From Candidatus Woesearchaeota archaeon (GTDB taxonomy: Archaea > Nanobdellota > Nanobdellia > SCGC-AAA011-G17 > PNOQ01), in NCBI GenBank assembly GCA_964603065.1, contig CAZRTL010000004.1:9686-73685 (forward strand): a stretch of DNA of 64,000 nt. The letters are read 5' to 3'. Numbering within the stretch: position 1 is the stretch's first letter; every line of letters begins with the position of its first letter. The notes below the pieces were generated by a model. That model ran no database searches and was not told the origin of the DNA. It saw only the letters and a program-made list of their open reading frames with translations. Below, in pieces: positions 16,535 to 40,437 of the stretch. The position numbers and the translations under genes were made by a program.

Positions 16535-17287
16535 ATGAAAATTAATGAAGATCTTGCTGAAGCATTTGGAATTCATGCTGGAGATGGATATTTAAGAGTT
16601 AAAGAAAGAAACAGAGGCGAGATAGATATTAGTGGAAATATTGAAGAAAAAGGATATTATGATGACCACGTAGTTCCTTTGTTTAATAAAATATTTAATT
16701 TAGATATGGGAGGAAGATATTTTTCTAGAGGTACTTATGGGTTTGTTAATTGTCAAAAGGAAGTTAGAAACGTTTTTCTTGAAGCAGGTTTCCCTTCTGG
16801 TAAAAAATCGCAAATTGTAAAAACCCCAGATTGTATTTTGAATAGTGGAGATGAAAAAATATACTCTAAATTTTTAAGGGGATATTTTGATACTGATGGT
16901 TGTTTATATTTTTGTAACAAAAAGGGAGGGGGAAAATATTGTGATTTCAAGAAAAAGTTTCATTATTATCCTCTTTTATCAGTATCTAGTGTATCGAAAA
17001 GATTAATTGAGGATGTGGTGTTTATTCTTAATAGAATTGGATTGCCTCACTATACTTATGATTATCAACCAAAAAATAAAAGAGATAATCATAAATGGGT
17101 TATAACTATTGCTGGAAAAAGTAGACTAGAGAAATGGATGAAATTAATAGGCACTAAAAATCCAGTAAAGCTCAGTAGATATTTAGTTTGGAAAAAGTTT
17201 GGATTTTGTCCTCCACATACTACTTTAAAGCAAAGGGAAGATTTTTTAAATGATAAAGCAGATATCAATTTACTATATTCAGCTTAA
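16535..17287 (+). CDS. free-standing double-motif LAGLIDADG endonuclease-family protein
   Basis: Motif 1 LAEAFGIHAGDGYL, motif 2 FLRGYFDTDGCL; 250 aa. Confidence 0.75.
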   Translation: MKINEDLAEAFGIHAGDGYLRVKERNRGEIDISGNIEEKGYYDDHVVPLFNKIFNLDMGGRYFSRGTYGFVNCQKEVRNVFLEAGFPSGKKSQIVKTPDCILNSGDEKIYSKFLRGYFDTDGCLYFCNKKGGGKYCDFKKKFHYYPLLSVSSVSKRLIEDVVFILNRIGLPHYTYDYQPKNKRDNHKWVITIAGKSRLEKWMKLIGTKNPVKLSRYLVWKKFGFCPPHTTLKQREDFLNDKADINLLYSA

Positions 17288-17354
17288 TGGGAGCCGAATG
17301 GTGGAGTTTAAGTACAAACCAACTGTGAAACCGTATTTCGACATTAGGTTGTTT

Positions 17355-17428
17355 GGGCCTGTAGTTTAATCTGGATAAAATTCTCGGTTTCGGCCCGAAG
17401 GATCCCGGTTCAAATCCGGGCGGGCCCG
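17355..17428 (+). tRNA. tRNA-Arg (anticodon TCG)
   Basis: Acceptor GGGCCTG/CGGGCCC, anticodon stem TCGG/CCGA with loop TTTCGGC, T-arm CCCGG-TTCAAAT-CCGGG, 74 nt, no encoded CCA. Confidence 0.7.
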
Positions 17429-17442
17429 TTTTATTTTGAAAG

Positions 17443-18114
17443 ATGCACGAATTAGTTAGAGCGTATAAGGAGGAATTTAAGAAAAGTTCTGATAGTGAGT
17501 TTGCTAAAGGCGCTCAGAGATATATGAAGAGTGAGATGCCTTATTATGGAATAAGGAGTCCTATAAAGAAAAAAATTGATTCTAGATTAAGAAAGAAATT
17601 TGAATTGAAGAGTTATGACGAATGGTATTCTGTAATAAATGAATTGTGGGATGCTCAGTATAGGGAAGAGAGATATGCTGCCATGACTGTTTTAAGTCAA
17701 TATAAAGAATATCATACTTTGAAAATAATTCCTTTGATTGAACATATTATAGTTACGGGAGCTTGGTGGGATTTTATTGATGGAATTGCTCCTAGAACTG
17801 TTGGAGACTTATTAAAGAAATATCCTAAAGAAATGGAAAAAGTTTTGAGGAGTTGGAATAACTCAGAACATATGTGGCTTAGGAGAGCTTCAATATTAGT
17901 ACAATTAAAATTTAAAGGTGAGACTGATGAAAAACTATTGTATTCATTTATTAAAAATAGGATGCATGAAAAAGAGTTTTTTATTAGAAAGGCTATTGGT
18001 TGGGCATTGAGAGAATATTCTAAGACAAATCCTGAATCTGTTAAGAAATTTATTTCTGAGAATAAAGATAATTTATCAAATTTGAGTATTAGAGAAGGTA
18101 GTAAGTATGTTTAA
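17443..18114 (+). CDS. DNA alkylation repair protein (AlkC/AlkD-like HEAT-repeat glycosylase family)
   Basis: N-terminus MHELVRAYKEEFKKSSDSEFAKGAQRYMKSEMPYYGIRSP is typical of the DNA_alkylation family; 223 aa. Confidence 0.65.
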   Translation: MHELVRAYKEEFKKSSDSEFAKGAQRYMKSEMPYYGIRSPIKKKIDSRLRKKFELKSYDEWYSVINELWDAQYREERYAAMTVLSQYKEYHTLKIIPLIEHIIVTGAWWDFIDGIAPRTVGDLLKKYPKEMEKVLRSWNNSEHMWLRRASILVQLKFKGETDEKLLYSFIKNRMHEKEFFIRKAIGWALREYSKTNPESVKKFISENKDNLSNLSIREGSKYV

Positions 18115-19130
18115 TTAGATAGTCTTTCCTTAGTTTCAAAGTAATTTCTTCTGCTAATGAAATAGTCCATAAAATTCTCTGTTTCAGATGGGAATATCTT
18201 CTTTGGAACTGTTTGTGGTTCTAATTGATCATTAACAGAAACAAAAGTGAATCTGCATATGTTTGAAGTATAAACTGGTTTTCTAGTACTTGGATCTAAT
18301 TTCTCCACTCCTACTTGGACATTCAAAGATTTTTCACCAATATGAGTTACCATTGAAGTAAATTTAACTATATCTCCTAGAGAAAGAGGTTTATTAAAAT
18401 CCACTCTGTCAACACAAACAGGAAGAGGAGCAGTTTTTACATAAGGCATCGCAGTTTGCCAGGCTGACTCATATGCTAATCTTACTACCCTGCCTCCAAA
18501 AACAATATTATGAAGATTCTTGTCTTGGGGGAACATTTGAGGTGTGTTTATTATAGCAGTATCTTCCATTCTTGTAAACTGTTCTGGAGACTTTTGATAA
18601 CTTAGTATTAATCTGGCCATGTGATCTTGTTCTTCTGAAGTCAACTTTTCCTGAAACGGTTTGCACTTTCTTCTTTCTTTTATTGCGGCCATTCTAGCAA
18701 GTGCAGGTTCTAAAATTTCTGGATTAGGATCTTGTAATTTAGGAAGAGATTTTTTTTCTTTTAGGTCATTCGTAAGCCCCACAAAATATAAATATCCTGA
18801 TACTACTTTTTCTCCTTCTCCGGTAAATAACTCGATTTCCGTTTCCATGGAATACTTCCCGACTCCATTAACGGTTGAAATAAAATGTAGATCTTCATTT
18901 CCAGGTATTTGTTTCATTAAATCTAATCTATCCATTGAAACTGTGACTACCCTCATTTCATCTTCGCCAGAAATTTTTAGATATTCTGTAGCATTAGTAC
19001 CACAAAGTAAATCAATATCTTCTAATACTAATCCAAGTCTTAGAAATCCATTTGTATCTACGTATTGTTCTCTTAAAATTTCATCAGTACTAAAGTTTAG
19101 AAGTTTTTCTAGTTTTTTGTGGGTTCCCAT
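18111..19130 (-). CDS. hypothetical protein, possibly double hot-dog acyl-CoA thioesterase-like
   Basis: 339 aa; two internally similar halves; weak resemblance only. Confidence 0.3.
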   Translation of the reverse strand: MGTHKKLEKLLNFSTDEILREQYVDTNGFLRLGLVLEDIDLLCGTNATEYLKISGEDEMRVVTVSMDRLDLMKQIPGNEDLHFISTVNGVGKYSMETEIELFTGEGEKVVSGYLYFVGLTNDLKEKKSLPKLQDPNPEILEPALARMAAIKERRKCKPFQEKLTSEEQDHMARLILSYQKSPEQFTRMEDTAIINTPQMFPQDKNLHNIVFGGRVVRLAYESAWQTAMPYVKTAPLPVCVDRVDFNKPLSLGDIVKFTSMVTHIGEKSLNVQVGVEKLDPSTRKPVYTSNICRFTFVSVNDQLEPQTVPKKIFPSETENFMDYFISRRNYFETKERLSN

Positions 19131-19217
19131 CCTAATTTGAAGATAATAGGTGTTGTTTTAAGCTTTTCGAATGAAGGAAACAAAAAGTTTTAAAAGTTAG
19201 TTTAATTCAATGAGATT

Positions 19218-20666
19218 ATGAAAAAACAGAGTTTAGAAGGAATTACGGTTAAAAAGTCTGAGAATTTTTCTGAGTGGTACACTCAAGTTATTCAGAAAGC
19301 AGAAATAGTTGATTTGAGACTTGGAGTTAAAGGATTTATTATAGTTAGACCGTGGGGAGCTTTAGCTATGGAAAAAATGTTTCGCCTTTATGAAGATGAA
19401 CTACAAAGAAAGGGCCATAGTCCTGTAATAATGCCTTCTGTTATTCCAGAATCAAATTTGAAGAAAGAATCTAGTCATGTTGAAGGTTTTACACCGGAGG
19501 TATTTTGGTTGGATGGAGACAAAGATGAAGAAAGACTTGCTTTGAGACCTACAAGTGAAACTGTTTTTACACCTATGTTTGACTATTGGGTTAGAAGTCA
19601 TAGAGATTTGCCTTTAAAATTATATCAGAAAGGTTCGGTTTTTAGATATGATACTAAAGCAACTAGGCCTTTGATTAGAGGTAGAGAGTTTAATTGGATA
19701 GAGGCACATGATGCTTTTTCAACTAGAGAAGAGGCAGAAGCTCAAGTTCAAGAAGATATTCAAATGACTGAGAATATTATGCATCAAAAATTTGGAGTTC
19801 CTTTTTTAGCTATGAAAAGACCGCAGTGGGATAAATTTGCGGGAGCAGAATATACTATTGGATCCGATGTTATTATGCCCGATGGAAAATTAATACAGCA
19901 GCCTTCTACTCATTACATGGGGCAGATATTTTCTAGAGCATTTGGATCTAAATTTATTGATAAACATGATAAGGAAGAGTATTTGTATACTACAGCTTAT
20001 GGTCCTGCAATTTCTAGAATTTTAGTTTCTATTATTTGCATGCATGGGGATGATAAAGGATTAGTTTTACCATATTGCATTTCGCCATTAAACGTGGTTG
20101 TAGTTCCCATATACAAGAAAAACAACAAGGATAAGGTTTTGAAGTATGTAAAAAGTATTGAAAAAAAACTAACTGGAGTTAAATATAAAGTTGATGATCG
20201 AGAAGAATACAGTCCTGGATGGAAATTTAATGAATGGGAATTAAAAGGTGTTCCGTTTAGGCTAGAAATTGGAGAGAAAGAGGCGAAGAGCAAAAAATTA
20301 TCTTTATTTATTAGAGACACAGGAGAAAAAATAAGTATTTCGTTAAGTGAATTGAAAAATCTGAATAAGATGGGTAAGGAATTTGATGAGAGATTATTGA
20401 AGAAAGCCGATAGTTTTATGAGGGGTAAAATTGTTGATTGTAAAACAAAAGTTGAAATTAAAAAAGCTATGTCAGATGGAAAAATAGCTCGTGTTCATTG
20501 GTGTTCTTTAGATGGAAATGGAGTTGAATGTGCCGAAGCAATAGAAAAAGATTTTTTAGCAGAAGTTAGGGGCACTATGGCTAACAAGAGAGAGAAATCG
20601 AAAGGCAATTGTGTAATGTGTAAGAAACCGGCTAGTGAAATGGTTTATGTTGCTAAAAGTTATTAA
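19218..20666 (+). CDS. proS: prolyl-tRNA synthetase, archaeal/eukaryotic type
   Basis: Class IIa motifs, FRYDTKATRPLIRGREF, C-terminal Zn-binding Cys cluster; 482 aa. Confidence 0.9.
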   Translation: MKKQSLEGITVKKSENFSEWYTQVIQKAEIVDLRLGVKGFIIVRPWGALAMEKMFRLYEDELQRKGHSPVIMPSVIPESNLKKESSHVEGFTPEVFWLDGDKDEERLALRPTSETVFTPMFDYWVRSHRDLPLKLYQKGSVFRYDTKATRPLIRGREFNWIEAHDAFSTREEAEAQVQEDIQMTENIMHQKFGVPFLAMKRPQWDKFAGAEYTIGSDVIMPDGKLIQQPSTHYMGQIFSRAFGSKFIDKHDKEEYLYTTAYGPAISRILVSIICMHGDDKGLVLPYCISPLNVVVVPIYKKNNKDKVLKYVKSIEKKLTGVKYKVDDREEYSPGWKFNEWELKGVPFRLEIGEKEAKSKKLSLFIRDTGEKISISLSELKNLNKMGKEFDERLLKKADSFMRGKIVDCKTKVEIKKAMSDGKIARVHWCSLDGNGVECAEAIEKDFLAEVRGTMANKREKSKGNCVMCKKPASEMVYVAKSY

Positions 20667-20758
20667 TAACCTATCTAATAAAAAAATTTATTTTAGAGTA
20701 AATCTTATATACTTCTTGACACTATTTAATTGTTAACTAAAAGAGAAGGCTATATTCA

Positions 20759-21121
20759 ATGAAAAAGTCATATCAAGTTTATATTTTAATTGGAATTGTT
20801 CTAATCTTATTTATAATGCTGTTAATCACACGACCCATTATATTTAATTCACCAAATAATGGGGAAACTTGGATAGATAAAGATGGAAATATATGTCAAG
20901 CATCTCAAAATGATGCCAAACTATCCCCCGAAATTCAAAAAAGTGGAGCGAGTGGAACATGTCAATGTAGTACAAATGATCAAGGAGAAGAAATATGTTG
21001 TAAATGTAGTGTGGGGGGTTGTCCAGGTTGTTCTCCTTCCGGATCTTCCTGTCAATGCGAAGGGGGAGATTCCATTATACCTTTAGATACAACTTGGTCA
21101 AATATAAAAAATCTATTCTGA
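20759..21121 (+). CDS. small secreted/membrane-anchored Cys-rich protein
   Basis: N-terminal TM or signal (ILIGIVLILFIMLLI), 14 Cys in a 60-aa C-terminal region; immediately upstream of the protease gene. Confidence 0.5.
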   Translation: MKKSYQVYILIGIVLILFIMLLITRPIIFNSPNNGETWIDKDGNICQASQNDAKLSPEIQKSGASGTCQCSTNDQGEEICCKCSVGGCPGCSPSGSSCQCEGGDSIIPLDTTWSNIKNLF

Positions 21122-21125
21122 CAAA

Positions 21126-22925
21126 ATGAAAAAAATAATTTTTCTAATATTGTTCCTTGTTATCATTTCAAGCTGCATGATACAGGAAAAATCTCCACCC
21201 TCATTTAAAAAAATTTCGGAAATAGCTTCTGAAGAATATTGGGATTCTGGCTTTACTTATGATTTTCCTTACTCTTTTGATTGGTCTTATAGACATAATG
21301 ACAATTATATAACCGATCGGGACGAACAACATTCTAATAATTGTTGGTCTTACTCTACAGTTGCCGCTGTAGAATCTCATATGTTACTTACGGGGAGGGG
21401 AGAGTATGATTTTTCAGAACTAGGACTTATGTGGGAATGCCAAGAAAGGGTAGACTGTTATCTAATAAACTATATGGGTTGCAACGGCGGATCTGCGCGC
21501 CATGCAATTGGGATACTGGGGACTATTGCATATGAGGAAAGCTCTAATTGTTACCCAAATTCAGATCTAGAAAACCCTGGTTATCCTCATAATAGTTGTT
21601 CTTGTCCAAATTGTGTAGATCAAACTGATGATAATTCCAGTAATGACCCCTATAGTTGTAGCGCATATAATTTAGGAATCGGCTCAGGAATGAAACAAAA
21701 CATAATTATAACACAGGAAATGGTAAAATATCATTTGCTTTCAAGGGGTCCACTCACAGCCTCTTTCGCTCCAGGACCATATGGTGGAATTCATAATATG
21801 TTAATTTATGGTTACAGTGGAAATAATTGGATTGTTAAAGATAGCGCCTATAATAATTATCAAGATCGTCCTATGTCGGATACATTGTATAATATAGCCT
21901 GGCCAGAGAGCGGCTATTCTGAATTTTGCCAAAATGATGATGGTGATGCTTTTTGTTGGTGGGGAATAAGTTCAATGGTTGAATATCATGATCCGTTTGA
22001 AATATTTGGCTTACCTAGTAGCTGTGATGGGAAAGGATGTAGCAGAAATGAACCAGATTTTAATGATTATGTTGCTTGTGAAATAGATTCATCGGAAAAT
22101 TCTAATGGTGGGTGTGCACCCGAATTTGCCTGTGGTGATGGAGTTTGTCAGGGTTGGGAGTCATGCAGAACTGGTCCGCCGAATGGAGGGTGTTTTAACG
22201 ACTGCTACATACCTGGATATGGGGGCAGAAGTGATGCCTGTTGCGGGAACGGAATCTTCGAAGAGGTGGAAGATTGTTCAAACTGTCCACAGGACGTCCC
22301 AGGAGGCTGTCCCGAATGTTCTGATAGAATAGATAACGATGGAGATGGATTTGTTGATTACCAAGGTTATGTGTTTTCAGAATCAGATCAAGATTGTGAA
22401 AATTTTGAAGATGATTCAGAATCTACGGAAGAATGTATTTGTGGAGACAATAACTTGTGTGGCGACGAAATATGTGAATTAACTCAAGAAAGTAATGTGA
22501 TATGCTATGATGCTCTAGCACAAGATAAAAAATGTTATGGTCCATTTAGTTCATCTGATGATAGCTATTGGGATAAAGGAGCATGGATGGATAATAAATG
22601 TTATCCCTTGGTTGGAACAACTACTAGGGATTGCGAAAATTGTGAGAATTGGATTCCTAATTGGGATGATTGTAAAACTTGTCCTGCAGTTGACGGTATA
22701 AATCCGGAAGATTATTTGGAAAGAGTGTATGTGACAGAAACAGAATGTAGGCAAAAAAGATATTCGGATAATCAATGGGTAAATATTCCATTTGAAACAT
22801 ATCCTAGACAGTTTCCAAAAACAAAAGACATTCATTTCGAAGAACAGTCACCTGGAGAATCACTGAAAAGTTCTATTTGGAATAAACTTAAGTGTGCGTT
22901 GCTAACTTGTTCAGAGGATAGCTAG
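21126..22925 (+). CDS. secreted papain-like (C1-family) cysteine protease with Cys-rich, Ca-binding-like C-terminal extension
   Basis: Signal/lipobox (IISSCM), catalytic Cys NCWSYSTVAAVES, His HNMLIYGY, Asn/Trp downstream, DNDGDGFVD thrombospondin/dockerin-like motif; 599 aa. Confidence 0.75.
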   Translation: MKKIIFLILFLVIISSCMIQEKSPPSFKKISEIASEEYWDSGFTYDFPYSFDWSYRHNDNYITDRDEQHSNNCWSYSTVAAVESHMLLTGRGEYDFSELGLMWECQERVDCYLINYMGCNGGSARHAIGILGTIAYEESSNCYPNSDLENPGYPHNSCSCPNCVDQTDDNSSNDPYSCSAYNLGIGSGMKQNIIITQEMVKYHLLSRGPLTASFAPGPYGGIHNMLIYGYSGNNWIVKDSAYNNYQDRPMSDTLYNIAWPESGYSEFCQNDDGDAFCWWGISSMVEYHDPFEIFGLPSSCDGKGCSRNEPDFNDYVACEIDSSENSNGGCAPEFACGDGVCQGWESCRTGPPNGGCFNDCYIPGYGGRSDACCGNGIFEEVEDCSNCPQDVPGGCPECSDRIDNDGDGFVDYQGYVFSESDQDCENFEDDSESTEECICGDNNLCGDEICELTQESNVICYDALAQDKKCYGPFSSSDDSYWDKGAWMDNKCYPLVGTTTRDCENCENWIPNWDDCKTCPAVDGINPEDYLERVYVTETECRQKRYSDNQWVNIPFETYPRQFPKTKDIHFEEQSPGESLKSSIWNKLKCALLTCSEDS

Positions 22926-23287
22926 TATCCTATCAATAAAGAAGCCCAATCTTTCTTAGTTTTTCTGTTTTTAATTAAATAATTATGTAGTCTTTTTGAA
23001 GGAGAAGAAGAAATTGAATTTTTTATTTCTGGAAAAGGAATGGCTGGAAAAATAACTTCTTTGTCAATCTTTTTAACTATTTTTTTTTGAGGTTTTCTGA
23101 ATTTAGAATCGTGAAAAACCAGAATTATATTTTTTTTATTCAGAACCTCTTCCACTCCAATATTATTTGGTTCGTTTAATTTTCTAATTTTATTTATTTC
23201 TTTATTTTTTAGAGGGGTAGGACTATGTAACCCTTTAATAAACCTTAATTTTAAGATCTGAATAAATTTATTAATTGCCAATACCAT
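22922..23287 (-). CDS. hypothetical protein
   Basis: 121-aa ORF between protease and transglutaminase-like genes; lysine-rich; coding status uncertain. Confidence 0.25.
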   Translation of the reverse strand: MVLAINKFIQILKLRFIKGLHSPTPLKNKEINKIRKLNEPNNIGVEEVLNKKNIILVFHDSKFRKPQKKIVKKIDKEVIFPAIPFPEIKNSISSSPSKRLHNYLIKNRKTKKDWASLLIGY

Positions 23288-26778: not shown

Positions 26779-26876
26779 AATAAGAAATTGTGGAGATGGT
26801 TGGTTTATAAATGTTTCTAATGTATATTGTCAAGTACATAAATTAAGTATTTAAATAAAGTAAAACTCCTAATTAC

Positions 26877-28070
26877 ATGGGGGAGAGTGGATATAGTCAA
26901 AGAGATGCTACAAAATTTAATTTTGCTAATCTAGATTTAAACAGTTTGGATTTTTCTGGAAATAGTCCACCAGCAGTTTTTGTCGGTAGATTTGGTTATC
27001 CAAAGGTAAATGTGGGTGTTTTGAGTCCTACCCAGAAAGATGAACACTCCTTCTTGATGGATAACCCTAAAGAATGGGTTAAGAGGGGATTTAAAGATCA
27101 TGAAATTTTGAAATTAAGAGCTCAGCTAGTTAATGCTAGATTTCAGAGTCAAGTGAAAAATTTTGATAATAGATTAACAGATTTATCACAGGAAGTTGGA
27201 ATGGCACATAAACCTGTGGATATGGAAGTTTTCTTGAAAAATAAACCAAGAAATGTTTTGAAAATGGAAAATGTTGCTAAGCCATTGAGTAATAATGCTA
27301 ATGTTAAGAATATAAAATTACAAGAAAATCCAAAAATAAAAACTTCTGTAGATAAAGTAGTATCTGATGGAGATATGAAATCTGTTGACGGGATTTACAA
27401 ATTATACAATAAAGGATTTGATGATAATTTTTTATCTAAAGTTTTAAGCATAGGTTTACTTGGAAAAACTAAAAATAGAAAGTTAGTTCCTACGAGATGG
27501 TCAGTTACGGCAACCTATAGCACATTAGGTAATGAAATACTGAAAGATGTTAGATATAATGAATCTACTGAAAATCAATTATATTTTGAAAGTTATCTTG
27601 GTAATAATTATTTAGTCATGTTTTTTCCTGGAGTTTGGAGTTTTGAGCTATTTGAAATGCCGGTCCCGATGCGAGTTAATCCCTGGAGTAAACATGGAAA
27701 TTTTTATGCCACAGATTATGAAGGTTTTTTTGGTAGAAAATATTATGTTGAGGAAACTGCTGGAGGTTATGCCGCTGCAAGGTTTCCAATAATAGAGAAA
27801 TTAAAAAAATTGAGAAAGCAGGGAAGTGTTTTAGTTTTAAGATTTATTACTCATGAAGATAAGTATCCTTTGGGTAGTTGGGTCTGCGCTGAAGCAAGTA
27901 GAAAATCAATTGAAAGTACACCAATAAACTTTGAAGATAAAGAAACTATGCTGGAATATGCTAAGTTATTAATTAAGAAAAAATTTAATTTTGATATTGA
28001 GAAATTATTGAAAATTAGTAAAATTTTAAATGAAGAAAGAACTCAGATGAGAATGTCTGAGTTTATATAG
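26877..28070 (+). CDS. hypothetical protein
   Basis: 397 aa; no motif recognised. Confidence 0.4.
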   Translation: MGESGYSQRDATKFNFANLDLNSLDFSGNSPPAVFVGRFGYPKVNVGVLSPTQKDEHSFLMDNPKEWVKRGFKDHEILKLRAQLVNARFQSQVKNFDNRLTDLSQEVGMAHKPVDMEVFLKNKPRNVLKMENVAKPLSNNANVKNIKLQENPKIKTSVDKVVSDGDMKSVDGIYKLYNKGFDDNFLSKVLSIGLLGKTKNRKLVPTRWSVTATYSTLGNEILKDVRYNESTENQLYFESYLGNNYLVMFFPGVWSFELFEMPVPMRVNPWSKHGNFYATDYEGFFGRKYYVEETAGGYAAARFPIIEKLKKLRKQGSVLVLRFITHEDKYPLGSWVCAEASRKSIESTPINFEDKETMLEYAKLLIKKKFNFDIEKLLKISKILNEERTQMRMSEFI

Positions 28071-29265
28071 CGACCCATAAAATATTTCTTCCTTTTTTTC
28101 CAAATCTCGCTGTTTTATTATTTTTTTCTAAATTCCCTAAATGCTCTCGGATAGAAGAATTCCCATAATTTAGTATTTCAACTAGTTCCGCTGTTGTTTT
28201 TGGACTATTACTAAGAATTCTTAGGATCTTATCTCTAGTTGCTCCATCTTTTTCTTTTATTAATCCTCTTTGTTTTCTTTTGATTAGTATTCTAAAATTT
28301 TTTGTTTTGTGGGCAAAATTGCATAGAGGGAATGCTATTTCTAATTTCTCTATATCTTTGGCTAAATTCAAATAACTTTCTGAAGAGATTAAAAATCGAT
28401 ATGAATCAAAGACTCCGTATCTATATTTCTTTTTTATTGGCATACAGCTATAACTACATTTTATTGCTATTTCCCCTACATCTTTTATTAATCTATAATT
28501 TTTTGAATATATTTCTATTACTTCTCCAATGTTCCCATCATCAATTACAAAAGAAACTAATCCTGCTAATAGAAAGTTTTTTGGAAGGGATTTTATATTA
28601 TTAGGAATATATGCATCAAAGGTATTGGTATTTGGTAAATTAAAGTAATAGTTATAAAATTTTGTAATTATTTTTGGGATATACAACTTCCCCAATTTGA
28701 ATTCATTTTCACTATACTTAAAATCTCCGAAAATATTATTTAGTTTTGATAAAAAATTGTTTAATCCTTCGTTATTCATTTGTCTATATGAAGAATTTGT
28801 TTTCTTATCTCCAATATGCCCATCTCCGCAAAAGTGAAATATTACAGAAATTAATTCCGGAGTTAGATATATAGGCAATTTTGGGTTGTATATTCTGCTT
28901 GATCCAGATATTGCATTATAATATTTTATGTTTCTCTCAATTTCTTTCATTAATTTATTATTTCTGGTTTTACTTCTTGTGATTAATTTGGATATCTCTA
29001 TTAATACCCACAATGGGATTGTTCTAGCTTTCTTTTGATTGTTTGGTCCAGAATATCCTTTTTTCCAGTAAAAAAACATTCCCCTTGAATACTTTCTTTT
29101 TAGATTATACTTTCTACTTTGATTGTTAAGATAGTTTATTGCTTTATTTTCACTTTGGAATTGATTAATAAATCGTGCAAGTAAATTATATCTGAACTTC
29201 TCTTTTAATTTAATGTATGTTTCGATCGGAGGAAAATCCCAAATATGGATTTCTTTATATTTCAT
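28063..29265 (-). CDS. LAGLIDADG endonuclease-family protein with C-terminal winged HTH
   Basis: Motif 1 FHFCGDGHIGD, motif 2 LLAGLVSFVIDDGNIG; C-terminal ArsR-like wHTH (KILRILSNSPKTTAELVEILNYGNSSIREHLGNLEK); 400 aa. Confidence 0.65.
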   Translation of the reverse strand: MKYKEIHIWDFPPIETYIKLKEKFRYNLLARFINQFQSENKAINYLNNQSRKYNLKRKYSRGMFFYWKKGYSGPNNQKKARTIPLWVLIEISKLITRSKTRNNKLMKEIERNIKYYNAISGSSRIYNPKLPIYLTPELISVIFHFCGDGHIGDKKTNSSYRQMNNEGLNNFLSKLNNIFGDFKYSENEFKLGKLYIPKIITKFYNYYFNLPNTNTFDAYIPNNIKSLPKNFLLAGLVSFVIDDGNIGEVIEIYSKNYRLIKDVGEIAIKCSYSCMPIKKKYRYGVFDSYRFLISSESYLNLAKDIEKLEIAFPLCNFAHKTKNFRILIKRKQRGLIKEKDGATRDKILRILSNSPKTTAELVEILNYGNSSIREHLGNLEKNNKTARFGKKGRNILWVAI

Positions 29266-29285: not shown

Positions 29286-29326
29286 GTTTAAATAGTCTGT
29301 GTCCGTGTATGGCAAGCTGACAAGAT
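29286..29326 (-). promoter_or_regulatory. conserved upstream motif + TATA box, copy 3 (minus strand)
   Basis: Reverse complement reads ATCTTGTCAGCTTGCCATACACGGACACAGACTATTTAAAC; minus-strand start codon at 29265. Confidence 0.5.
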
Positions 29327-30839: not shown

Positions 30840-30841
30840 TA

Positions 30842-31963: not shown

Positions 31964-31969
31964 TATTAA

Positions 31970-32374: not shown

Positions 32375-32386
32375 TTATTTTTTCTT

Positions 32387-32650
32387 TTATTCTCTAAAAG
32401 ATAATATTTGGAATCCGAAATTAGATATATCCTTATCTGATCCAACTTCTAGTTCTTTTGTGTTTAATACGTTAGAAATTTCCTTTTCTACTATTCTTCC
32501 AGTATAATCCTCTTTTTCAGGGTCCCATTCCCTTAATATTAGTAAATCTCCTGGTTTAGCTTCAAAATCTGCTAATCTTACATCTGATTTTTTAGTCCCG
32601 CTCACTACTTGTTCAAATCGTTCTGGCCAAAGCTTTTTTTCGATTTTCAT
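32387..32650 (-). CDS. ASCH/PUA-like small protein (DUF3850-like)
   Basis: KIEKKLWPERFEQVVSGTKKSDVRLADFEAKPGDLLILREWD fits the DUF3850 pattern; 87 aa. Confidence 0.5.
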   Translation of the reverse strand: MKIEKKLWPERFEQVVSGTKKSDVRLADFEAKPGDLLILREWDPEKEDYTGRIVEKEISNVLNTKELEVGSDKDISNFGFQILSFRE

Positions 32651-32760
32651 AAAGTTATTTTGATTTTTGAGTTTATATGAATTTTGTAGGTTAATTCTAT
32701 AAGTTTGATTAGTTATATTATAGGCAAAAATTTTTAAATTGGAGATCTTTTTATATCTGT

Positions 32761-34482: not shown

Positions 34483-34493
34483 GAAAAAAAAGA

Positions 34494-35516
34494 TTATTTC
34501 CAAAACATAAGATTGGAAATAACTCTTTCTAAAAAGTTTTTAAACTTTGTGTTGGTTGGTTCTCTTACAAAATCTCCTGTTAGATCTTCTAAAGAATCAC
34601 TATTATATTCTACTCCGGCAGCAGTTGCTTCTTGCATAAGTGCTTTTCCTGCAAAAATTCCAAAATTGTTTGTCATTACAGAGTCTGATGCTGCTTCATA
34701 ATCTGGAGCGGTTCTTGTTTCATGCATATATTCTACTGGGATTGCTCTTTCCTCATAGTACTCTCGAACATTCCTTCTTTCATAGAATAAATTTATATGA
34801 GACCCACCGGTTTTTCTCGCAATCGTTTTCCACTGGTTCATTCCCTCTTGGTTCATTCCAGATCCTGATGCTGTATAGATTCTAATGTTTTTATCTTGTG
34901 CATCATCTATAGCATCTTTCCAATTATACTTATGATAATTTGGTTCTGGCTCATTCCCATAATAATTTTGATTTGGATAATTTCTTGCTGGAGCATCTCC
35001 AACTAAAATTATTATTTTATGAGCTGAACTTCTCCAGTTCATATGATTAATTGCTTCATCTAGGCCAGCTTCAACAGCTTCTTCATAATCTCCTCCACCA
35101 TAAGATTCGATACTTTTAATAAATTTAACCGCATCTTTTGTGTTTCTTGTTAGAGGTGTTTCTCTAGTTAGATAGCTGTGTTCATATGGTTCGTAATCTC
35201 TATAGGTGACTACTCCCACTCTTACGTCAGGTCTAGGGTAACCAGAGTTTACTTTTCCTACTATGTTTCTTAATTCTTCTTTTACTGTTCTTATTTCGTC
35301 ATGCATAGATCCTGTTGAATCTATTACAAAAACTATATCTAATTGTATTTGTTCCGATGGAACATAGTTTGGCCCCACTTCTGAACAAGATATTTCAGTT
35401 GTGGATTGCATAAATTCACATGGCAGGTCGTAATCTCTTTGTCTCTCATCGTATGCCAGTGTGAATGTTGAAAGTAATATCAATCCAACGAAAATCATGC
35501 TTAATATTTTTTTCAT
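34494..35516 (-). CDS. secreted von Willebrand factor A (vWA) domain protein
   Basis: Signal peptide; MIDAS DxSxS (DIVFVIDSTGSM); 340 aa. Confidence 0.75.
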   Translation of the reverse strand: MKKILSMIFVGLILLSTFTLAYDERQRDYDLPCEFMQSTTEISCSEVGPNYVPSEQIQLDIVFVIDSTGSMHDEIRTVKEELRNIVGKVNSGYPRPDVRVGVVTYRDYEPYEHSYLTRETPLTRNTKDAVKFIKSIESYGGGDYEEAVEAGLDEAINHMNWRSSAHKIIILVGDAPARNYPNQNYYGNEPEPNYHKYNWKDAIDDAQDKNIRIYTASGSGMNQEGMNQWKTIARKTGGSHINLFYERRNVREYYEERAIPVEYMHETRTAPDYEAASDSVMTNNFGIFAGKALMQEATAAGVEYNSDSLEDLTGDFVREPTNTKFKNFLERVISNLMFWK

Positions 35517-35612
35517 TTTATTTGAACCTCCTTAAAGTTCTAAGAACTAGTAAGATAGAATTATATTTAAACGTCGTTTAGGCTTTAAGTTGATTTGAAG
35601 TAAAAGTAGAAA

Positions 35613-36209
35613 TTATTTTTTTCTTAGAAGTGACAATAATAAAAGTATCAGAATTACAAATAAAGAACCCATTAGGAAAACTAGAGCATAGTTTGGATCT
35701 ACAGCTTGGGTTGCTACTTCTACTGCCAAATCTGTAGCTTGATCTTTTCCGGGGAGAGCTTTACCTGCTACTTCTGTTTGTGCCTCAGATAGGGAGCTTA
35801 CAGTTTTTGTAGCGAATGTTCTAGTATTCTGCCATAAGTAAATTATGCCGGATCCAACTAAACTTAACAGAGTAACTGGAAGAAGATTTTTTAATTTTGA
35901 TAAGTTATTTTCAGAAGAATCCGGTGCGATTATAATATATTTTTTTGCTAGTTTGTACACTAACATTTCTTTTCCTTTTTTACTCCAGAAAAATTCTTTT
36001 GCTTCTATTAATTTAGCTTTTTTTAATTGCTGAATATTATAATGTATTGTTGGAAGAGGCACTTTTAGTTCTTTTGCTATGTCTGATTCTGTAGATTCTT
36101 TATGTTCTGCTAGATATGAGATTATTTTTTGAGCAGTTTTGTTTGACATGGCATCTGCTACTGCTTTTGAATCTTTCATTGAGAGTAGCATAAATGTTTC
36201 GTCTTTCAT
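35613..36209 (-). CDS. ArsR-type wHTH regulator with C-terminal membrane anchor
   Basis: HTH LPTIHYNIQQLKKAKLIE; C-terminal TM LVFLMGSLFVILILLLLSLL; 198 aa. Confidence 0.55.
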   Translation of the reverse strand: MKDETFMLLSMKDSKAVADAMSNKTAQKIISYLAEHKESTESDIAKELKVPLPTIHYNIQQLKKAKLIEAKEFFWSKKGKEMLVYKLAKKYIIIAPDSSENNLSKLKNLLPVTLLSLVGSGIIYLWQNTRTFATKTVSSLSEAQTEVAGKALPGKDQATDLAVEVATQAVDPNYALVFLMGSLFVILILLLLSLLRKK

Positions 36210-36269
36210 TTTATTTTAAAGGTAGAAGTTAATTTATAAAGGTTATTTTGGGTTTGAATCTGATTGAAG

Positions 36270-38876
36270 CTATTCTATTTGTATCCCTGGTTTTAATGGC
36301 ATAGCTTTTGGATTGTTTTTTTCTATTTCAATTGGAATTCCCAGTTCTTCAGTAATTAAATCTTTATTTTTCATCAAAGTTTCAATCTCTGTTTTTTGAT
36401 CTAACAATACTTTTGGAATTTTTGATTCATTTTTTAATAAAGAAGGAACTATTTTAGAAATATCTTTAGCGTGTTTTTTATCCATGACTTTGTCCATTAT
36501 CTTTTTCAAGTCGTGAGTTTTTTCCATTTCTTTTTTCAAATTTTTAATTAGATTATACTTCCATTCTTCAGCTACTGAAACTGTAGCTTTTTTAGGTTCT
36601 ATCTTAATAAAATCAAAAATTCTTTTTATATCTCTTATTGTATTTTCAATTAGATCTTGTTGTGCGTCAATTTCTGGGTCTATTTTAGATTCCTCAAAAG
36701 TTGGCCATTCTTGTAACATTACAAATTCTTTATTTCCTAATTTAAACCATAACTCTTCTGCTAAGTGGGGCATAAAAGGACTAATTAACTTAGACAAAAC
36801 TTCTATTGATTCTTTTGTTATTTCATTCTTTGATAAAAAGTTAATATATTCTGATAATAATATTGTTGACATGTTGAATTGCATATTTTCAATTGTTTCA
36901 GTAATTTCTTTGGTTGTTTTATTTTGAATGTTATCTAATTCTGGATAAGATTTTTTTATGAATTGTTTTTCGGTTAAAGGCAAAATTTTATTTGTTAATC
37001 TAAATGCTCCTTCAATTCCTTTGTCTGTCCAGTCTTTATCCTTATCTGGAGCCGATAATGAATATAGAAAAAACCTTGCTGTATCTATCCCGTATTTTTC
37101 TGCTATTGGTTCTTGATTTACAATGTTTCCTAGAGATTTTGACATTTTGTGTCCATCTCTATTTAACATTCCTTGATTGAATAATTTTTGAGCTGGCTCG
37201 TCAAAACTTAATAACTTTAAATCTCTTAGAACTTTTGTTATGAACCTACAATAGATTAAGTGAAGTGTTGCGTGTTCTTTTCCCCCTATGTATAAATCTA
37301 TTGGCATCCAGCGATTTACTTTTTCCTTTGAGAACATTTCATCGAAATTATGGGAGTCTATAAATCTTAGGAAGTACCATGAAGAGTCCATAAATGTGTC
37401 CATTGTATCTGTTTCTCTTTTTGCTTTTGCACCACACTTTGAACATAAAGCATTTTTATATTCTTCAGATGTTTCTAGAGGGTTTCCTCCTTTTGTGAAA
37501 GTTACGTCTTCTGGTAATTTTACAGGCAGGTTCTCTTCTTTCTCTGGAACCAGACCACAGGATTCACAATTTAACATTGGGATAGGTGTTCCCCAGTATC
37601 TTTGTCTTGATAATAACCAGTCTCTTAATCTATATTGAATTGTTTTTTTACCTAATTTTTGTTCTTCTAGATATTTTGTTATTTTTTTTATTGCGTCTCT
37701 GTTTTTTAAATCGTTAAAATCATTTGAATTAATTAGGATTCCATCTTCTATGTATGCCTTTTCTAAAAGTTCAGGTAATTCTTTATCTTTAGGTTTAATT
37801 ACAGTTTTGATATCTATATCGAATTTTTTTGCGAATTCGAAATCTCTTTGATCATGAGCTGGTACGGCCATTACTGCTCCGCCACCATAATCTGCAACTA
37901 CGAAGTTTCCTATATAGATTGGAACCTCTTCTTTTGTTAATGGATTAATTGCATATTTTCCGATAAACATTCCTTCTTTTTCTACGCTTTCAGAAATTCT
38001 TTCAAATTTGTCTTGAGTTGATACTTTTTTTATGAATTTTTTTGTTTCTTCTTCATATTTAGTTCCTTTAATTAACTCTAAAACTTTTGGATGTTCAGGG
38101 GCAAATACCATAAAAGTAACCCCATGAATTGTATCTGCTCTTGTTGTAAATATTGGAATCTCTTCGTTTGTATCTTTAAATTTGAAATTTATTGTTGTAC
38201 CTTCAGATTCTCCTATCCAGGTTTTTTGCATCTGTTTGATGTTTTCTGGCCAATCTAATTTTTCTAAATCTTTTAGTAATTCTTTTGTGTAAGCCGTGGT
38301 TTTGAAGAACCACTGGTTTAGTTCTTTTAGTATAACCTCTGTTTTACTGTGTCTCCAACAACAACCATTTACAACCTGTTCATTTGCTAATACAGTGTTA
38401 CACTCTGAACACCAATTTACTGGGGCCGTTTTTTTGTAGGCCAATCCTTTTTCAAACATTTTTAGGAAAAGCCATTGATTCCATTTGTAATATTCTGGAT
38501 CATGAGAGTAAATCATTCTGGACCAATCATAACTTATTCCTAATTCCTTAAGTTGTCTAATATAATTTGTTATTGCTTTATCTGTGTAAATTTTTGGGTG
38601 AGTATTGTCTTTCATTGCCGCATTTTCTGCCGGCAATCCAAAAGAATCAAATCCTGATGGATGTAAGACATTAAAACCTTTCATTTTTTTATATCTAGCT
38701 ATTACATCCGTAATTGTGTAGTTTACAGCATGGCCCATATGGAGGCCATAAGCCGATGGATAAGAATACATCCCTAGGCAATAAAATTTTGGCTTCTTTG
38801 AAGTTTCTTCTGTTAAGAAGATTTCTGATTTTTCCCAGGCCAATTGCCACTTTTTCTCAATCTTATGGTAATTCAT
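36270..38876 (-). CDS. leuS: leucyl-tRNA synthetase, archaeal type
   Basis: HMGH (HIGH variant), KMSKS, CP1 editing insertion; 868 aa. Confidence 0.9.
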   Translation of the reverse strand: MNYHKIEKKWQLAWEKSEIFLTEETSKKPKFYCLGMYSYPSAYGLHMGHAVNYTITDVIARYKKMKGFNVLHPSGFDSFGLPAENAAMKDNTHPKIYTDKAITNYIRQLKELGISYDWSRMIYSHDPEYYKWNQWLFLKMFEKGLAYKKTAPVNWCSECNTVLANEQVVNGCCWRHSKTEVILKELNQWFFKTTAYTKELLKDLEKLDWPENIKQMQKTWIGESEGTTINFKFKDTNEEIPIFTTRADTIHGVTFMVFAPEHPKVLELIKGTKYEEETKKFIKKVSTQDKFERISESVEKEGMFIGKYAINPLTKEEVPIYIGNFVVADYGGGAVMAVPAHDQRDFEFAKKFDIDIKTVIKPKDKELPELLEKAYIEDGILINSNDFNDLKNRDAIKKITKYLEEQKLGKKTIQYRLRDWLLSRQRYWGTPIPMLNCESCGLVPEKEENLPVKLPEDVTFTKGGNPLETSEEYKNALCSKCGAKAKRETDTMDTFMDSSWYFLRFIDSHNFDEMFSKEKVNRWMPIDLYIGGKEHATLHLIYCRFITKVLRDLKLLSFDEPAQKLFNQGMLNRDGHKMSKSLGNIVNQEPIAEKYGIDTARFFLYSLSAPDKDKDWTDKGIEGAFRLTNKILPLTEKQFIKKSYPELDNIQNKTTKEITETIENMQFNMSTILLSEYINFLSKNEITKESIEVLSKLISPFMPHLAEELWFKLGNKEFVMLQEWPTFEESKIDPEIDAQQDLIENTIRDIKRIFDFIKIEPKKATVSVAEEWKYNLIKNLKKEMEKTHDLKKIMDKVMDKKHAKDISKIVPSLLKNESKIPKVLLDQKTEIETLMKNKDLITEELGIPIEIEKNNPKAMPLKPGIQIE

Positions 38877-38911
38877 AGAGGTTTGGTAATTTAGAGAATT
38901 TAAATAAGTTT

Positions 38912-39130
38912 TTATTTAACTCTTAAATTGCGAGCTTTTTCGGATAGGCGGAATATACCCTCTTGTTGCTCTTTCACTTTTTTTGCGTTTTCCAATCCCT
39001 GCCTTATTAGTTCTTCTAAATCATTTTTTGTTAATGGTTTTTGTGGAACTTCTTTAGGTTTGTAACTTTCTAAATTTTTAGATTTATAAATTCCTATGTA
39101 ATTTAAAGCTCTTTTAATGTAATCTATCAT
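38912..39130 (-). CDS. hypothetical small protein
   Basis: 72 aa ORF, 4-bp overlap with the upstream ORF. Confidence 0.3.
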   Translation of the reverse strand: MIDYIKRALNYIGIYKSKNLESYKPKEVPQKPLTKNDLEELIRQGLENAKKVKEQQEGIFRLSEKARNLRVK

Positions 39131-39447
39131 TTGTATCTCCTTTTGTATTCTTCTGGGGGTATTTGGAATAACGGCTCATATTCTTCACGAACTTTTTTGG
39201 CTATTTCTTCTCCTTCCTCCAATAAATATCTTAAACCTAATATTCTATCGTCTAATCCTTCTAAATCTTGACGTCTTGTAAAATCAGATAAAAACTTATC
39301 CAGAGTTAATTTGAGTGTCTTTCTGAATCTTCTTTTATCATCATAGAGAACTTTTAATTTTACGGATTTTTCATCTATAAAAGTGACTTCGTAAAAACCG
39401 CCTTTGTGATGTTTGTATATACCTAGCTCTATTTTATCTTTAAACAT
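39127..39447 (-). CDS. hypothetical protein
   Basis: 106 aa ORF. Confidence 0.3.
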   Translation of the reverse strand: MFKDKIELGIYKHHKGGFYEVTFIDEKSVKLKVLYDDKRRFRKTLKLTLDKFLSDFTRRQDLEGLDDRILGLRYLLEEGEEIAKKVREEYEPLFQIPPEEYKRRYK

Positions 39448-39530
39448 AAAAGGAATACAAGTTATTAATTTAAATAGATTTTGGTTTAAAAGAAAGAAAA
39501 AGAATTATTTTCAAGGAGTAAATTAGTTGT

Positions 39531-39571
39531 ATCTTGTCAGCTTGCCACGCACGCAGGTAGAGTTTATAAAT
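39531..39571 (+). promoter_or_regulatory. conserved upstream motif + TATA box, copy 4
   Basis: ATCTTGTCAGCTTGCCACGCACGCAGGTAGAGTTTATAAAT; ATG at 39592. Confidence 0.5.
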
Positions 39572-39591
39572 AAAAAACTATATTTTAAGGT

Positions 39592-40437
39592 ATGGAAATG
39601 GATGTTGAAAGCACTTCTAAATTAATAAGGGGTAAGAAGGAAATTTGTGTTTTTTATAATGATAAAATTTTTGAAGAAGTTATGTCTAATTTGAATCCAA
39701 AAGAAATTATGGGAATTTCTAGAAGATCTGTTTATTATTGGAAGCAAAAAGAGAGACCTATTCCAGTTTCTCATTTAGTCAGTATTTGTAAAAATAATAA
39801 TATTGAAAAAATTAATCTTGTGTCTTTATCTACCAATAGCGGAAATAAAATTAATTTACCTGAAAGCAATAATTTATCTTTATATCATTTTTTGGGATTA
39901 TTATTGGGAGACGGATGTCTTTGTATAAGTAAAGAAAGAGAATTGAAGAGACAAAGCTACACAGTTAGAATTGCTGTTAATAGCAAAAATAGAATAAATC
40001 AAATTTCTAGATTAATGGAGTCTCTTTTTGGAATTAAACCTAGTTGTCATAAATGTAAAGGGTGCTATGAAGTTTGTATTTACTCTAAGGCTTTGTTATT
40101 TTTCTTGAATACATATTATGAAATCCCCATTGGTGAAAAATATCCACTTATGAAGGTTCCTTTGAGAATAAAAAATGATTTTGATAGTATAAGATATTTT
40201 CTAAGAGGATTAATGGATAGCGATGGAAATCAATATATCTATAGGGGGAGATTGTGTTTTCAATTGAGACAAAAATCTGGAGAATTTCTTAGTGAAGTCT
40301 ATAACTTATTTCATAAAATTGGTATGAATATAAATGGGCCCTATTTTGATAAAGCTAATAATTCTTGGGTGATTTGGTGTAGTAAAAAAAACATTGTAGA
40401 TAAATTTATAAATGAAATAGATGCTCTTAAAATTTAG
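39592..40437 (+). CDS. LAGLIDADG endonuclease-family protein with N-terminal HTH
   Basis: Motif 1 LYHFLGLLLGDGCL, motif 2 FLRGLMDSDGNQ; N-terminal HTH-like segment (EIMGISRRSVYYWKQK); 281 aa. Confidence 0.7.
   Translation: MEMDVESTSKLIRGKKEICVFYNDKIFEEVMSNLNPKEIMGISRRSVYYWKQKERPIPVSHLVSICKNNNIEKINLVSLSTNSGNKINLPESNNLSLYHFLGLLLGDGCLCISKERELKRQSYTVRIAVNSKNRINQISRLMESLFGIKPSCHKCKGCYEVCIYSKALLFFLNTYYEIPIGEKYPLMKVPLRIKNDFDSIRYFLRGLMDSDGNQYIYRGRLCFQLRQKSGEFLSEVYNLFHKIGMNINGPYFDKANNSWVIWCSKKNIVDKFINEIDALKI

What the first reader, a model, noticed from the sequence alone, without database searches (positions are those of the whole stretch)
16535..40437. Three divergent free-standing LAGLIDADG proteins with HTH add-ons, all driven by the same promoter module
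Genes 16535..17287, 28063..29265 (minus strand) and 39592..40437 each carry two LAGLIDADG-type motifs. The protein sequences are otherwise dissimilar. One has a C-terminal ArsR-like winged helix and one has an N-terminal HTH. Archaeal LAGLIDADG endonucleases are normally embedded in rRNA/tRNA introns or inteins. Three stand-alone paralogs under one shared promoter and operator suggests a domesticated or regulated nuclease family. They could be defence nucleases, or LAGLIDADG-derived DNA-binding regulators. A LAGLIDADG protein that is catalytically dead and fused to a winged helix would support the regulator reading.
Basis: partly seen in the sequence, partly recalled or inferred. Interest (0 to 1): 0.65.

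Follow-up and report, generated by a model that had tools for sequence, protein, structure and literature searches.

The report
Conserved stand-alone LAGLIDADG nucleases, shared promoter
A tiny marine archaeon carries three stand-alone relatives of "homing" DNA-cutting enzymes that are as conserved as housekeeping genes, keep their cutting residues, and share an unusually rigid promoter element that in relatives also drives the recombinase RadA and the repair nuclease Hef.

Summary

The interpretation needs correcting. (1) None is catalytically dead: the acidic residue ending each LAGLIDADG helix is invariant or nearly so in all three families. (2) They are not sporadic selfish genes. Each belongs to a uniform-length DPANN family, diverges about as much as neighbouring tRNA synthetases, and keeps fixed neighbours: LAG1 before tRNA-Arg(TCG), LAG3 before an intron-containing tRNA (read as Arg(TCT) in two loci), LAG2 convergent with the repair gene nre. 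(3) The module is not LAGLIDADG-specific. It is a tandem CTTGYCAN repeat, exactly 15 nt, then TATA. The window has five copies. In related genomes it also drives radA, hef and other nuclease-like genes.

Best reading (inferred): host-integrated, probably active endonucleases in a lineage-specific recombination/repair regulon. Main rival: long-persisting free-standing homing endonucleases at tRNA-Arg flanks.

The parts
16474..16514 (+). Promoter module of LAG1: 17-nt box (16474-16490, tandem CTTGTCAG/CTTGCCAC), 15-nt spacer, TATA box TTTATAAAT (16506-16514); ATG 21 nt further on
16535..17287 (+). LAG1, 250 aa, double-motif LAGLIDADG protein (motif 1 GIHAGDG with Asp17; motif 2 GYFDTDG with Asp121) with a conserved C-terminal tail (KNPVKLSRYLxWKKFGFCPP)
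17354..17429 (+). tRNA-Arg(TCG), found directly downstream of LAG1-family genes in all 4 loci with DNA
17443..18114 (+). AlkD-type DNA alkylation repair gene starting 13 nt after tRNA-Arg; same order in L252; possible co-transcription is inferred only
26877..28070 (+). nre (archaeal Nre_N + Nre_C), convergent with LAG2 and overlapping its 3' end by 8 nt; this pairing is kept in 5 of 5 loci
28063..29265 (-). LAG2, 400 aa: conserved N-terminal domain (about residues 1-130), double LAGLIDADG core (Asp148; Asp242-Asp243), C-terminal ArsR-type winged helix (about residues 340-400)
29286..29326 (-). Promoter module of LAG2: box 29326-29310, 15-nt spacer, TATA box TATTTAAAC (29294-29286)
39531..39571 (+). 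Promoter module of LAG3: box 39531-39547, 15-nt spacer, TATA box 39563-39571
39592..40437 (+). LAG3, 281 aa: N-terminal helical unit of about 90 aa (HTH-like, weak evidence) plus double LAGLIDADG core (Asp107, Asp211; RQKS 226-229)
40405..40413 (+). TATA box (TTTATAAAT) inside the last helix of LAG3 (codons Phe-Ile-Asn 272-274), placed to drive the adjacent tRNA
40439..40560 (+). Intron-containing tRNA starting 2 nt after the LAG3 stop codon (read as Arg(TCT) in orthologous loci L243 and L256; anticodon call ambiguous here)
41179..41249 (+). tRNA-Cys(GCA), found near LAG3-family genes in all four loci
7213..7253 (+). Fourth copy of the module (box with one mismatch, 15-nt spacer, TATA box CTTATAAAT 7245-7253)
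7274..7693 (+). PIN-domain (VapC-like) gene driven by the module
55076..55116 (+). Fifth copy of the module (box 55076-55092, 15-nt spacer, TATA box 55108-55116)
55150..55590 (+). Small-ORF cluster (42, 32 and 71 aa) downstream of the fifth module; function unknown

Best explanation
LAG1, LAG2 and LAG3 are three anciently diverged, vertically inherited LAGLIDADG endonuclease paralogues of a Woesearchaeota-type (DPANN) archaeon. They have been kept as host genes with intact metal-binding active sites. In this lineage they are transcribed from a dedicated promoter architecture: a tandem repeat CTTGYCAN-CTTGYCAC placed exactly 15 nt upstream of the TATA box. The same architecture drives radA, hef, a PIN nuclease and further nuclease-like genes in this and related genomes. 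The proposed mechanism is that one trans-acting factor, still unidentified, binds the tandem repeat next to TBP/TFB. Judging by the position of the box, it is more likely an activator. It would switch the whole set on together, so that sequence- or structure-specific LAGLIDADG nucleases are made alongside the recombinase RadA and the fork/flap nuclease-helicase Hef. That would make a recombination/repair-type regulon. Shown: fold, motif conservation, family breadth, synteny, promoter architecture and its downstream genes. Inferred: nuclease activity, co-regulation, the activator, and the repair or recombination role. LAG2 carries two extra DNA-binding-type domains and is locked tail-to-tail with nre, a PCNA-dependent repair factor of unknown biochemistry. 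It is the best candidate for a true repair role.
Against: There are no expression data and no identified binding factor, so co-regulation is inferred from a shared sequence only. radA and hef with the module were seen in related genomes, not in this window, which holds neither gene. The box is absent or diverged upstream of distant orthologues (L245, L247, L253, L255-L257), so the wiring is specific to one subclade and is not intrinsic to the proteins. The basic active-site residues (I-DmoI K43/K130) could not be mapped confidently in LAG1 and LAG2. A decayed LAG1-like remnant behind an intact module (L044) and a nuclease-like ORF lying between the module and radA (L025) show turnover typical of mobile nuclease genes. 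Tight placement at the 5' flank of tRNA genes is also what a homing element would show.
Confidence: 0.5

Rival explanations
1. They are free-standing homing endonuclease genes that persist long-term. LAG1 and LAG3 would home to the 5' flank of tRNA-Arg genes, cutting alleles that lack them, as phage T4 SegB does in its tRNA cluster. They would have acquired the radA-type promoter so that they are expressed when the host recombination machinery needed for homing is induced.
For: Catalytic residues are intact. Two paralogous families sit within 1-76 nt of, or overlapping, the 5' end of two tRNA-Arg isoacceptors in every locus examined. LAG3 carries the tRNA's TATA box inside its own last codons, as an inserted element would need to. 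A decayed LAG1-like copy sits at another locus next to tRNA-Thr (L044). Further LAGLIDADG-like genes (L019, L064) and a nuclease-like ORF between the module and radA (L025) lie behind the same promoter. T4 SegB is a free-standing endonuclease that recognises a conserved tRNA motif (PMC2330249).
Against: No empty site was seen: 4/4, 4/4 and 5/5 loci are occupied, across genomes from 29 to 52% GC. Divergence tracks tRNA-synthetase neighbours. Lengths are uniform, and no pseudogenes were found at the conserved loci. LAG2 is not next to a tRNA, and its family is deep and mostly full length. Classical models predict decay after fixation.
Confidence: 0.28
2. They are DNA-binding regulators built on a LAGLIDADG scaffold, an archaeal counterpart of bacterial WhiA. 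LAG2, through its winged helix, might itself bind the shared box and control the regulon, including its own gene.
Against: WhiA lacks the acidic and basic catalytic residues (PMC3384342), whereas all three families keep the acidic ones. No Pfam WhiA model matches. Many LAG2-family members (about 330 aa) lack the winged helix. LAG2 orthologues in L253 and L257 have the winged helix but no box upstream. LAG1 has no HTH domain.
Confidence: 0.1
3. They are anti-virus or anti-plasmid defence nucleases induced together with a PIN toxin.
For: The promoter is shared with a PIN-domain gene. They are nucleases with long recognition surfaces.
Against: PADLOC finds only weak generic 'HEase' hits and a weak Csa3 winged-helix hit on LAG2. 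There is no defence-island context. Conservation and synteny are those of housekeeping genes, not of patchy, fast-evolving defence genes.
Confidence: 0.05

Closest known systems
Monomeric double-motif LAGLIDADG homing endonucleases (I-DmoI, I-Tsp061I, and the endonuclease domains of archaeal inteins such as TliVMA and PI-PfuI)
   Different: Not inside an intron or intein. They have their own promoter. They are conserved like housekeeping genes with fixed neighbours. They carry extra domains: the N-terminal unit in LAG2 and LAG3, the ArsR winged helix in LAG2, and a conserved C-terminal tail in LAG1.
WhiA/DUF199 (bacterial domesticated LAGLIDADG + HTH transcription factor)
   Different: [quoted passage not shown] The HTH is of ArsR/SmtB winged type, not the WhiA type. 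No sequence-level membership. Archaeal, not Gram-positive bacterial.
Free-standing phage homing endonucleases with intronless homing (T4 SegB in the tRNA cluster; Seg/Mob genes)
   Same: A stand-alone endonuclease gene with its own promoter lodged directly beside tRNA genes.
   Different: SegB is GIY-YIG, phage-borne and polymorphic among related phages. Here the genes are LAGLIDADG, chromosomal, and present at the same site in every genome examined.
Yeast HO endonuclease (domesticated intein-derived LAGLIDADG nuclease with added zinc fingers)
   Same: An active LAGLIDADG nuclease kept for a host function, with an added DNA-binding module and tight transcriptional control.
   Different: HO retains intein remnants and is young and narrowly distributed. 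These proteins have no intein parts and are ancient within DPANN. Their host function is unknown.
Upstream promoter elements of archaeal DNA-damage genes (the hexanucleotide motif in Sulfolobus UV-inducible promoters)
   Same: A short conserved element upstream of the BRE/TATA region shared by a set of genes linked to DNA transfer or repair.
   Different: Different sequence, a different lineage, a longer tandem repeat and a strictly fixed 15-nt spacing. No induction data exist here.

Membership tests
LAGLIDADG endonuclease superfamily (double-motif, monomeric) | [quoted passage not shown] | tested here: met
LAGLIDADG endonuclease superfamily (double-motif, monomeric) | Acidic metal-binding residue at the C-terminal end of each LAGLIDADG helix (I-DmoI D21/E117) | tested here: met
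   LAG1 Asp17 29/29 and Asp121 29/29. LAG2 Asp148 34/35 and position 243 Asp/Glu 35/35. LAG3 Asp107 23/23 and Asp211 23/23. Helix ends in the models coincide with these residues.
LAGLIDADG endonuclease superfamily (double-motif, monomeric) | Conserved basic residues near the active site (I-DmoI K43/K130) | tested here: inconclusive
   LAG3 domain 2 has RQKS (Gln227 invariant, Lys228 at 90% or more), resembling I-DmoI TQKS. The equivalent positions in LAG3 domain 1, LAG1 and LAG2 could not be assigned with confidence.
LAGLIDADG endonuclease superfamily (double-motif, monomeric) | Site-specific, metal-dependent DNA cleavage | not testable with these tools
   Needs recombinant protein and substrates.
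Homing endonuclease genes as mobile elements | Encoded within a self-splicing intron or an intein | tested here: not met
   Each gene has its own TATA box and ATG in an intergenic region. No intein domains were found. LAG3 lies outside the adjacent tRNA, whose intron is only about 48 nt.
Homing endonuclease genes as mobile elements | Presence/absence polymorphism at the insertion site and sporadic distribution | tested here: inconclusive
   All orthologous loci examined are occupied (4/4, 4/4, 5/5), and divergence tracks the neighbours. Only a handful of genomes could be fetched, and one decayed extra copy exists (L044).
WhiA/DUF199 | Sequence membership (Pfam WhiA_N, LAGLIDADG_WhiA, HTH_WhiA) | tested here: not met
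   No WhiA model matched at E<=1. Only structural similarity was found.
WhiA/DUF199 | Loss of the catalytic acidic residues (non-nuclease) | tested here: not met
   The acidic residues are retained and conserved. The WhiA state is taken from PMC3384342.
ArsR/SmtB winged-helix regulators (C-terminus of LAG2 only) | ArsR-type winged helix-turn-helix domain | tested here: met
ArsR/SmtB winged-helix regulators (C-terminus of LAG2 only) | Homodimeric repressor with metal- or ligand-sensing sites that binds an inverted repeat | not tested
   Only the roughly 60-residue winged-helix core is present. The shared box is a direct, not an inverted, repeat.

The most novel reading that the evidence does not exclude
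The tandem CTTGYCAN box set exactly 15 nt from the TATA box defines a previously unrecognised, SOS-like recombination/repair regulon in Woesearchaeota-type DPANN archaea. Domesticated, catalytically active LAGLIDADG endonucleases would be its effector nucleases, made together with RadA and Hef. LAG2 would be the missing catalytic partner of the PCNA-binding repair factor Nre. A variant of this reading is that nuclease genes spread by inserting directly behind copies of this promoter, using it as both landing site and expression signal.
Probability: 0.3. Interest if true: 0.85.

Novelty: new variant of a known kind. Interest (0 to 1): 0.68.

Why it matters
LAGLIDADG enzymes are the textbook selfish nucleases. 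The known host-recruited cases are few: WhiA, which has lost activity; yeast HO; and organellar maturases. Here three separate families appear to have been kept for a very long time in genome-reduced archaea, with their active sites intact and with fixed partners (two tRNA-Arg genes and the repair gene nre). That suggests they do something for the cell.

The shared promoter gives a concrete, testable handle on gene regulation and on a possible DNA-damage or recombination response in DPANN archaea, for which almost nothing is known. It also gives a candidate biochemical partner for Nre, whose activity has resisted analysis. The enzymes would be a new source of long-site nucleases.

Tried and rejected
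- PDB sequence searches with the single proteins gave only marginal hits. Family profiles were needed.
- The whole-collection scans for the 17-nt box returned mostly chance hits in unrelated bacteria, because 16 specified bases are too few for 596 Gb. Only low-GC archaeal loci with the box + 15 nt + TATA layout were kept. Both scans are capped, so the regulon could not be enumerated genome-wide.
- Default ARAGORN missed the intron-containing tRNA after LAG3. With introns allowed it called Pro(AGG) in the window and L249 but Arg(TCT) in L243 and L256. I treat the anticodon in the window as unresolved.
- The bacterial-type promoter/terminator scan was uninformative for this archaeon.
- The G+C-rich stretch 16428-16470 upstream of the LAG1 box has no significant fold (z -1.4) and no Rfam match.
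- The TrmB-family gene beside LAG1 was considered as the factor that binds the box. TrmB-like genes occur near LAG genes in L243, L245 and L252, but they are only 28-32% identical to it, so they are not clear orthologues. This was left open.
- The window's own nre promoter has only a degenerate half-site and was not counted.
- The idea that the box is itself the cleavage site of these enzymes was set aside as unsupported, since every gene would then carry its own target.
- L019 (341 aa) has LAG2-like motifs, but profile comparisons were weak (10% and 26% probability). It is called LAGLIDADG-like only.
Full report
**What is there**

The window is an archaeal contig of about 30% G+C from marine metagenomes. 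Its closest named relatives are Woesearchaeota MAGs.

**Are they dead?**

No. The acidic residue at the end of each LAGLIDADG helix corresponds to I-DmoI D21/E117, which is essential for catalysis and absent from WhiA (PMC3384342). Its conservation is as follows:

| Family | Motif 1 | Motif 2 |
|---|---|---|
| LAG1 | Asp17, 29/29 | Asp121, 29/29 |
| LAG2 | Asp148, 34/35 | position 243, Asp/Glu 35/35 |
| LAG3 | Asp107, 23/23 | Asp211, 23/23 |

The LAG3 family profile aligns to I-DmoI (E 2.8e-8) with Asp107 on Asp21. Its second domain carries RQKS, resembling I-DmoI TQKS. The basic residues could not be placed with confidence in LAG1 and LAG2. Nuclease activity itself is inferred, not shown.

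**Are they selfish or host genes?**

Each protein belongs to a uniform-length family in DPANN archaea:

| Family | 90%-identity clusters found | Typical length | Identity to the window protein |
|---|---|---|---|
| LAG1 | more than 265 | about 245-255 aa | about 50% |
| LAG2 | 101 | about 400 aa, or about 330 aa without the winged helix | 41-68% |
| LAG3 | 31 | about 280-290 aa | 36-70% |

An exhaustive profile search with the LAG2 family finds 156 clusters at 50% identity with E<=1e-30, mostly full length.

Across the same genome pairs, the LAG proteins diverge about as much as their syntenic housekeeping neighbours:

| Comparison | LAG protein | Neighbours |
|---|---|---|
| window vs L252 | LAG1 70% | ProRS 79%, AlkD 76%, AspRS 59% |
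| window vs L249 | LAG3 70% | LeuRS 72% |
| window vs L243 | LAG3 49% | LeuRS 54% |
| window vs L253 / L247 | LAG2 55% | Nre 43-44%, L15e 60% |

Their neighbours are fixed:

- LAG1-family genes are followed directly by tRNA-Arg(TCG) in the window, L252, L245 (single-cell genome AAA011-D5) and L255.
- LAG3-family genes are followed within 1-6 nt by an intron-containing tRNA, with tRNA-Cys nearby, in the window, L249, L243 and L256. The last of these is a 42.5% G+C genome. The tRNA is read as Arg(TCT) in L243 and L256.
- The TATA box for that tRNA lies inside the codons for a conserved Phe-Ile-Asn in the last helix of LAG3.
- LAG2-family genes are convergent with nre in all five loci examined, including a 52% G+C MAG labelled Hadarchaeota. 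Their 3' ends overlap in four of the five.

NreA is a PCNA-dependent DNA-damage repair factor with no known biochemical activity (PMC4929162). By profile comparison, LAG1 and LAG3 are clear paralogues (98% probability, E 2e-14). LAG2 and LAG3 are more distant relatives that share the N-terminal segment (86%). LAG1 and LAG2 are not detectably related beyond the fold.

**The promoter**

The shared element is real, but it is neither limited to three copies nor specific to LAGLIDADG genes. ATCTTGTCAGCTTGCCA occurs five times in the window against 0.14 expected. The two extra copies precede a PIN-domain gene and a small-ORF cluster.

The same element was recovered from other low-GC archaeal contigs. 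It is also kept, with small changes, upstream of orthologues of LAG1 (L252), LAG3 (L249, and a half-box in L243) and LAG2 (L258). These variants show its true structure:

- a tandem direct repeat CTTGYCAN-CTTGYCAC;
- then a spacer of exactly 15 nt, often beginning GCACG;
- then TTTATAAAT;
- with the ATG 20-40 nt further on.

All 14 instances, from at least six genomes, have the 15-nt spacer. The relaxed tandem pattern occurs nowhere else in 229 kb of archaeal sequence.

The genes directly downstream of the module are:

- the three LAG genes and their orthologues;
- a further LAGLIDADG_3 protein (L064);
- a LAGLIDADG-like protein (L019);
- a decayed LAG1-like remnant (L044);
- a PIN nuclease;
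- an uncharacterised 261-aa protein (L084);
- a zinc-ribbon ORF that by eye carries a PD-(D/E)xK-like motif, followed by a small gene and radA (L025);
- the same small gene followed by radA (L122; Rad51 5e-89);
- hef (L223; DEAD helicase + ERCC4).

In L258, nre itself carries the proximal half-box at the same spacing. Distant orthologues have ordinary promoters without the box. The wiring therefore belongs to one subclade.

**Interpretation**

The data best fit host-retained, probably active LAGLIDADG endonucleases that this lineage has placed under one dedicated promoter, together with recombination and repair genes. The box lies upstream of the TATA box at a rigid distance. That placement suits an activator contacting TBP/TFB better than a repressor's operator. 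Both the factor and the inducing condition are unknown.

The main rival is that LAG1 and LAG3 are long-persisting free-standing homing endonucleases targeting tRNA-Arg 5' flanks, as T4 SegB does in its tRNA cluster (PMC2330249). The tRNA adjacency, the embedded tRNA promoter, the decayed copy in L044 and the ORF lying between the module and radA in L025 all favour this. Against it stand the universal occupancy of the loci I could fetch, divergence like that of tRNA synthetases, and the absence of pseudogenes at the conserved loci. I could not survey enough genomes to settle the point.

The WhiA-like 'dead regulator' reading and a defence role are not supported.

**Novelty**

Stand-alone LAGLIDADG ORFs are annotated routinely in DPANN MAGs as 'LAGLIDADG family homing endonuclease' or 'ArsR family regulator'. 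Full-text searches found no description of these families' conservation, their tRNA-Arg and nre linkage, or the promoter module. I rate it a new variant of a known kind: a LAGLIDADG scaffold retained by the host with the active site kept, plus a new lineage-specific cis-regulatory element.

Noticed in passing
L122 5825-6079; L025 3619-3885 (minus strand): A conserved small protein of 84-88 aa (56% identical between the two genomes, no Pfam hit) sits immediately upstream of radA and overlaps its start in both genomes. In L122 it is the first gene behind the promoter module. It may be an unrecognised RadA partner or a single-strand-binding factor.
   Followed up: partly
L025 3886-4977 (minus strand): A 363-aa ORF with several CxxC zinc-ribbon motifs and a C-terminal ELDIF...FEYQGRQH stretch (PD-(D/E)xK-like by eye; only a weak DUF2726 hit). 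It lies between the promoter module and the small gene + radA, whereas in L122 the module directly precedes the small gene. It looks like a nuclease gene inserted behind the promoter.
   Followed up: partly
L044 2091-2310: An intact promoter module is followed only by a C-terminal remnant of a LAG1-like gene (45% identity to LAG1 residues 186-238), next to tRNA-Thr on the opposite strand. This is a decayed extra copy, evidence that some copies turn over.
   Followed up: partly
window 40439-40560: This tRNA carries an intron of about 48 nt. Default ARAGORN misses it and Rfam finds it (42.5 bits). With introns allowed, ARAGORN calls Pro(AGG) here but Arg(TCT) for the orthologous tRNA in L243 and L256. 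The intron may sit at a non-canonical position.
   Followed up: partly
window 7274-7693 and 7746-8036: The module-driven PIN (VapC-like) gene has a ribbon-helix-helix (CopG/VapB-like) gene downstream on the opposite strand. This convergent layout is unusual for a toxin-antitoxin pair, which is normally co-transcribed.
   Followed up: no
window 17429-17443; L252 10892-10903: The AlkD-type alkylation repair gene starts 11-13 nt after the 3' end of tRNA-Arg(TCG), with a T-run between them. This leaves no room for its own promoter, which suggests read-through or tRNA-punctuated processing of a LAG1-tRNA-AlkD transcript.
   Followed up: no
L258 6398-6460 (minus strand); window 26810-26876: In L258 the nre promoter has the proximal half-box GCTTGCCA, then 15 nt, then TTTATAAAT. 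The window's nre promoter has only a degenerate ATTGTCA at that spacing. The same short palindrome faces the divergent L15e gene.
   Followed up: partly
window 53625-55040 and 55624-56220: The fifth module and its small ORFs are flanked by a 471-aa ORF with no Pfam hit (by eye it has metallophosphoesterase-like GDxH / GHTH motifs) and by a 198-aa ORF that also looks like a metallophosphoesterase by eye (not scanned). The downstream one could belong to the same transcription unit.
   Followed up: no
window 16428-16470: A G+C-rich stretch lies between the TrmB-like gene and the LAG1 box in an otherwise 30% G+C genome. It has no significant fold (z -1.4) and no Rfam match.
   Followed up: yes
window 17147-17254 (LAG1 residues about 205-240): The LAG1 family has a strongly conserved C-terminal tail beyond the LAGLIDADG core (IGxKNPVKLSRYLxWKKFGFCPPxTTLxQRE). 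No family matches it. It could be an extra DNA-binding or partner-binding element.
   Followed up: no
L257 2967-3797: A radical-SAM gene flanks the LAG2-nre pair in the Hadarchaeota-labelled MAG. This recalls the reported adjacency of nre with SplB-like radical-SAM genes in other archaea (PMC4929162).
   Followed up: no
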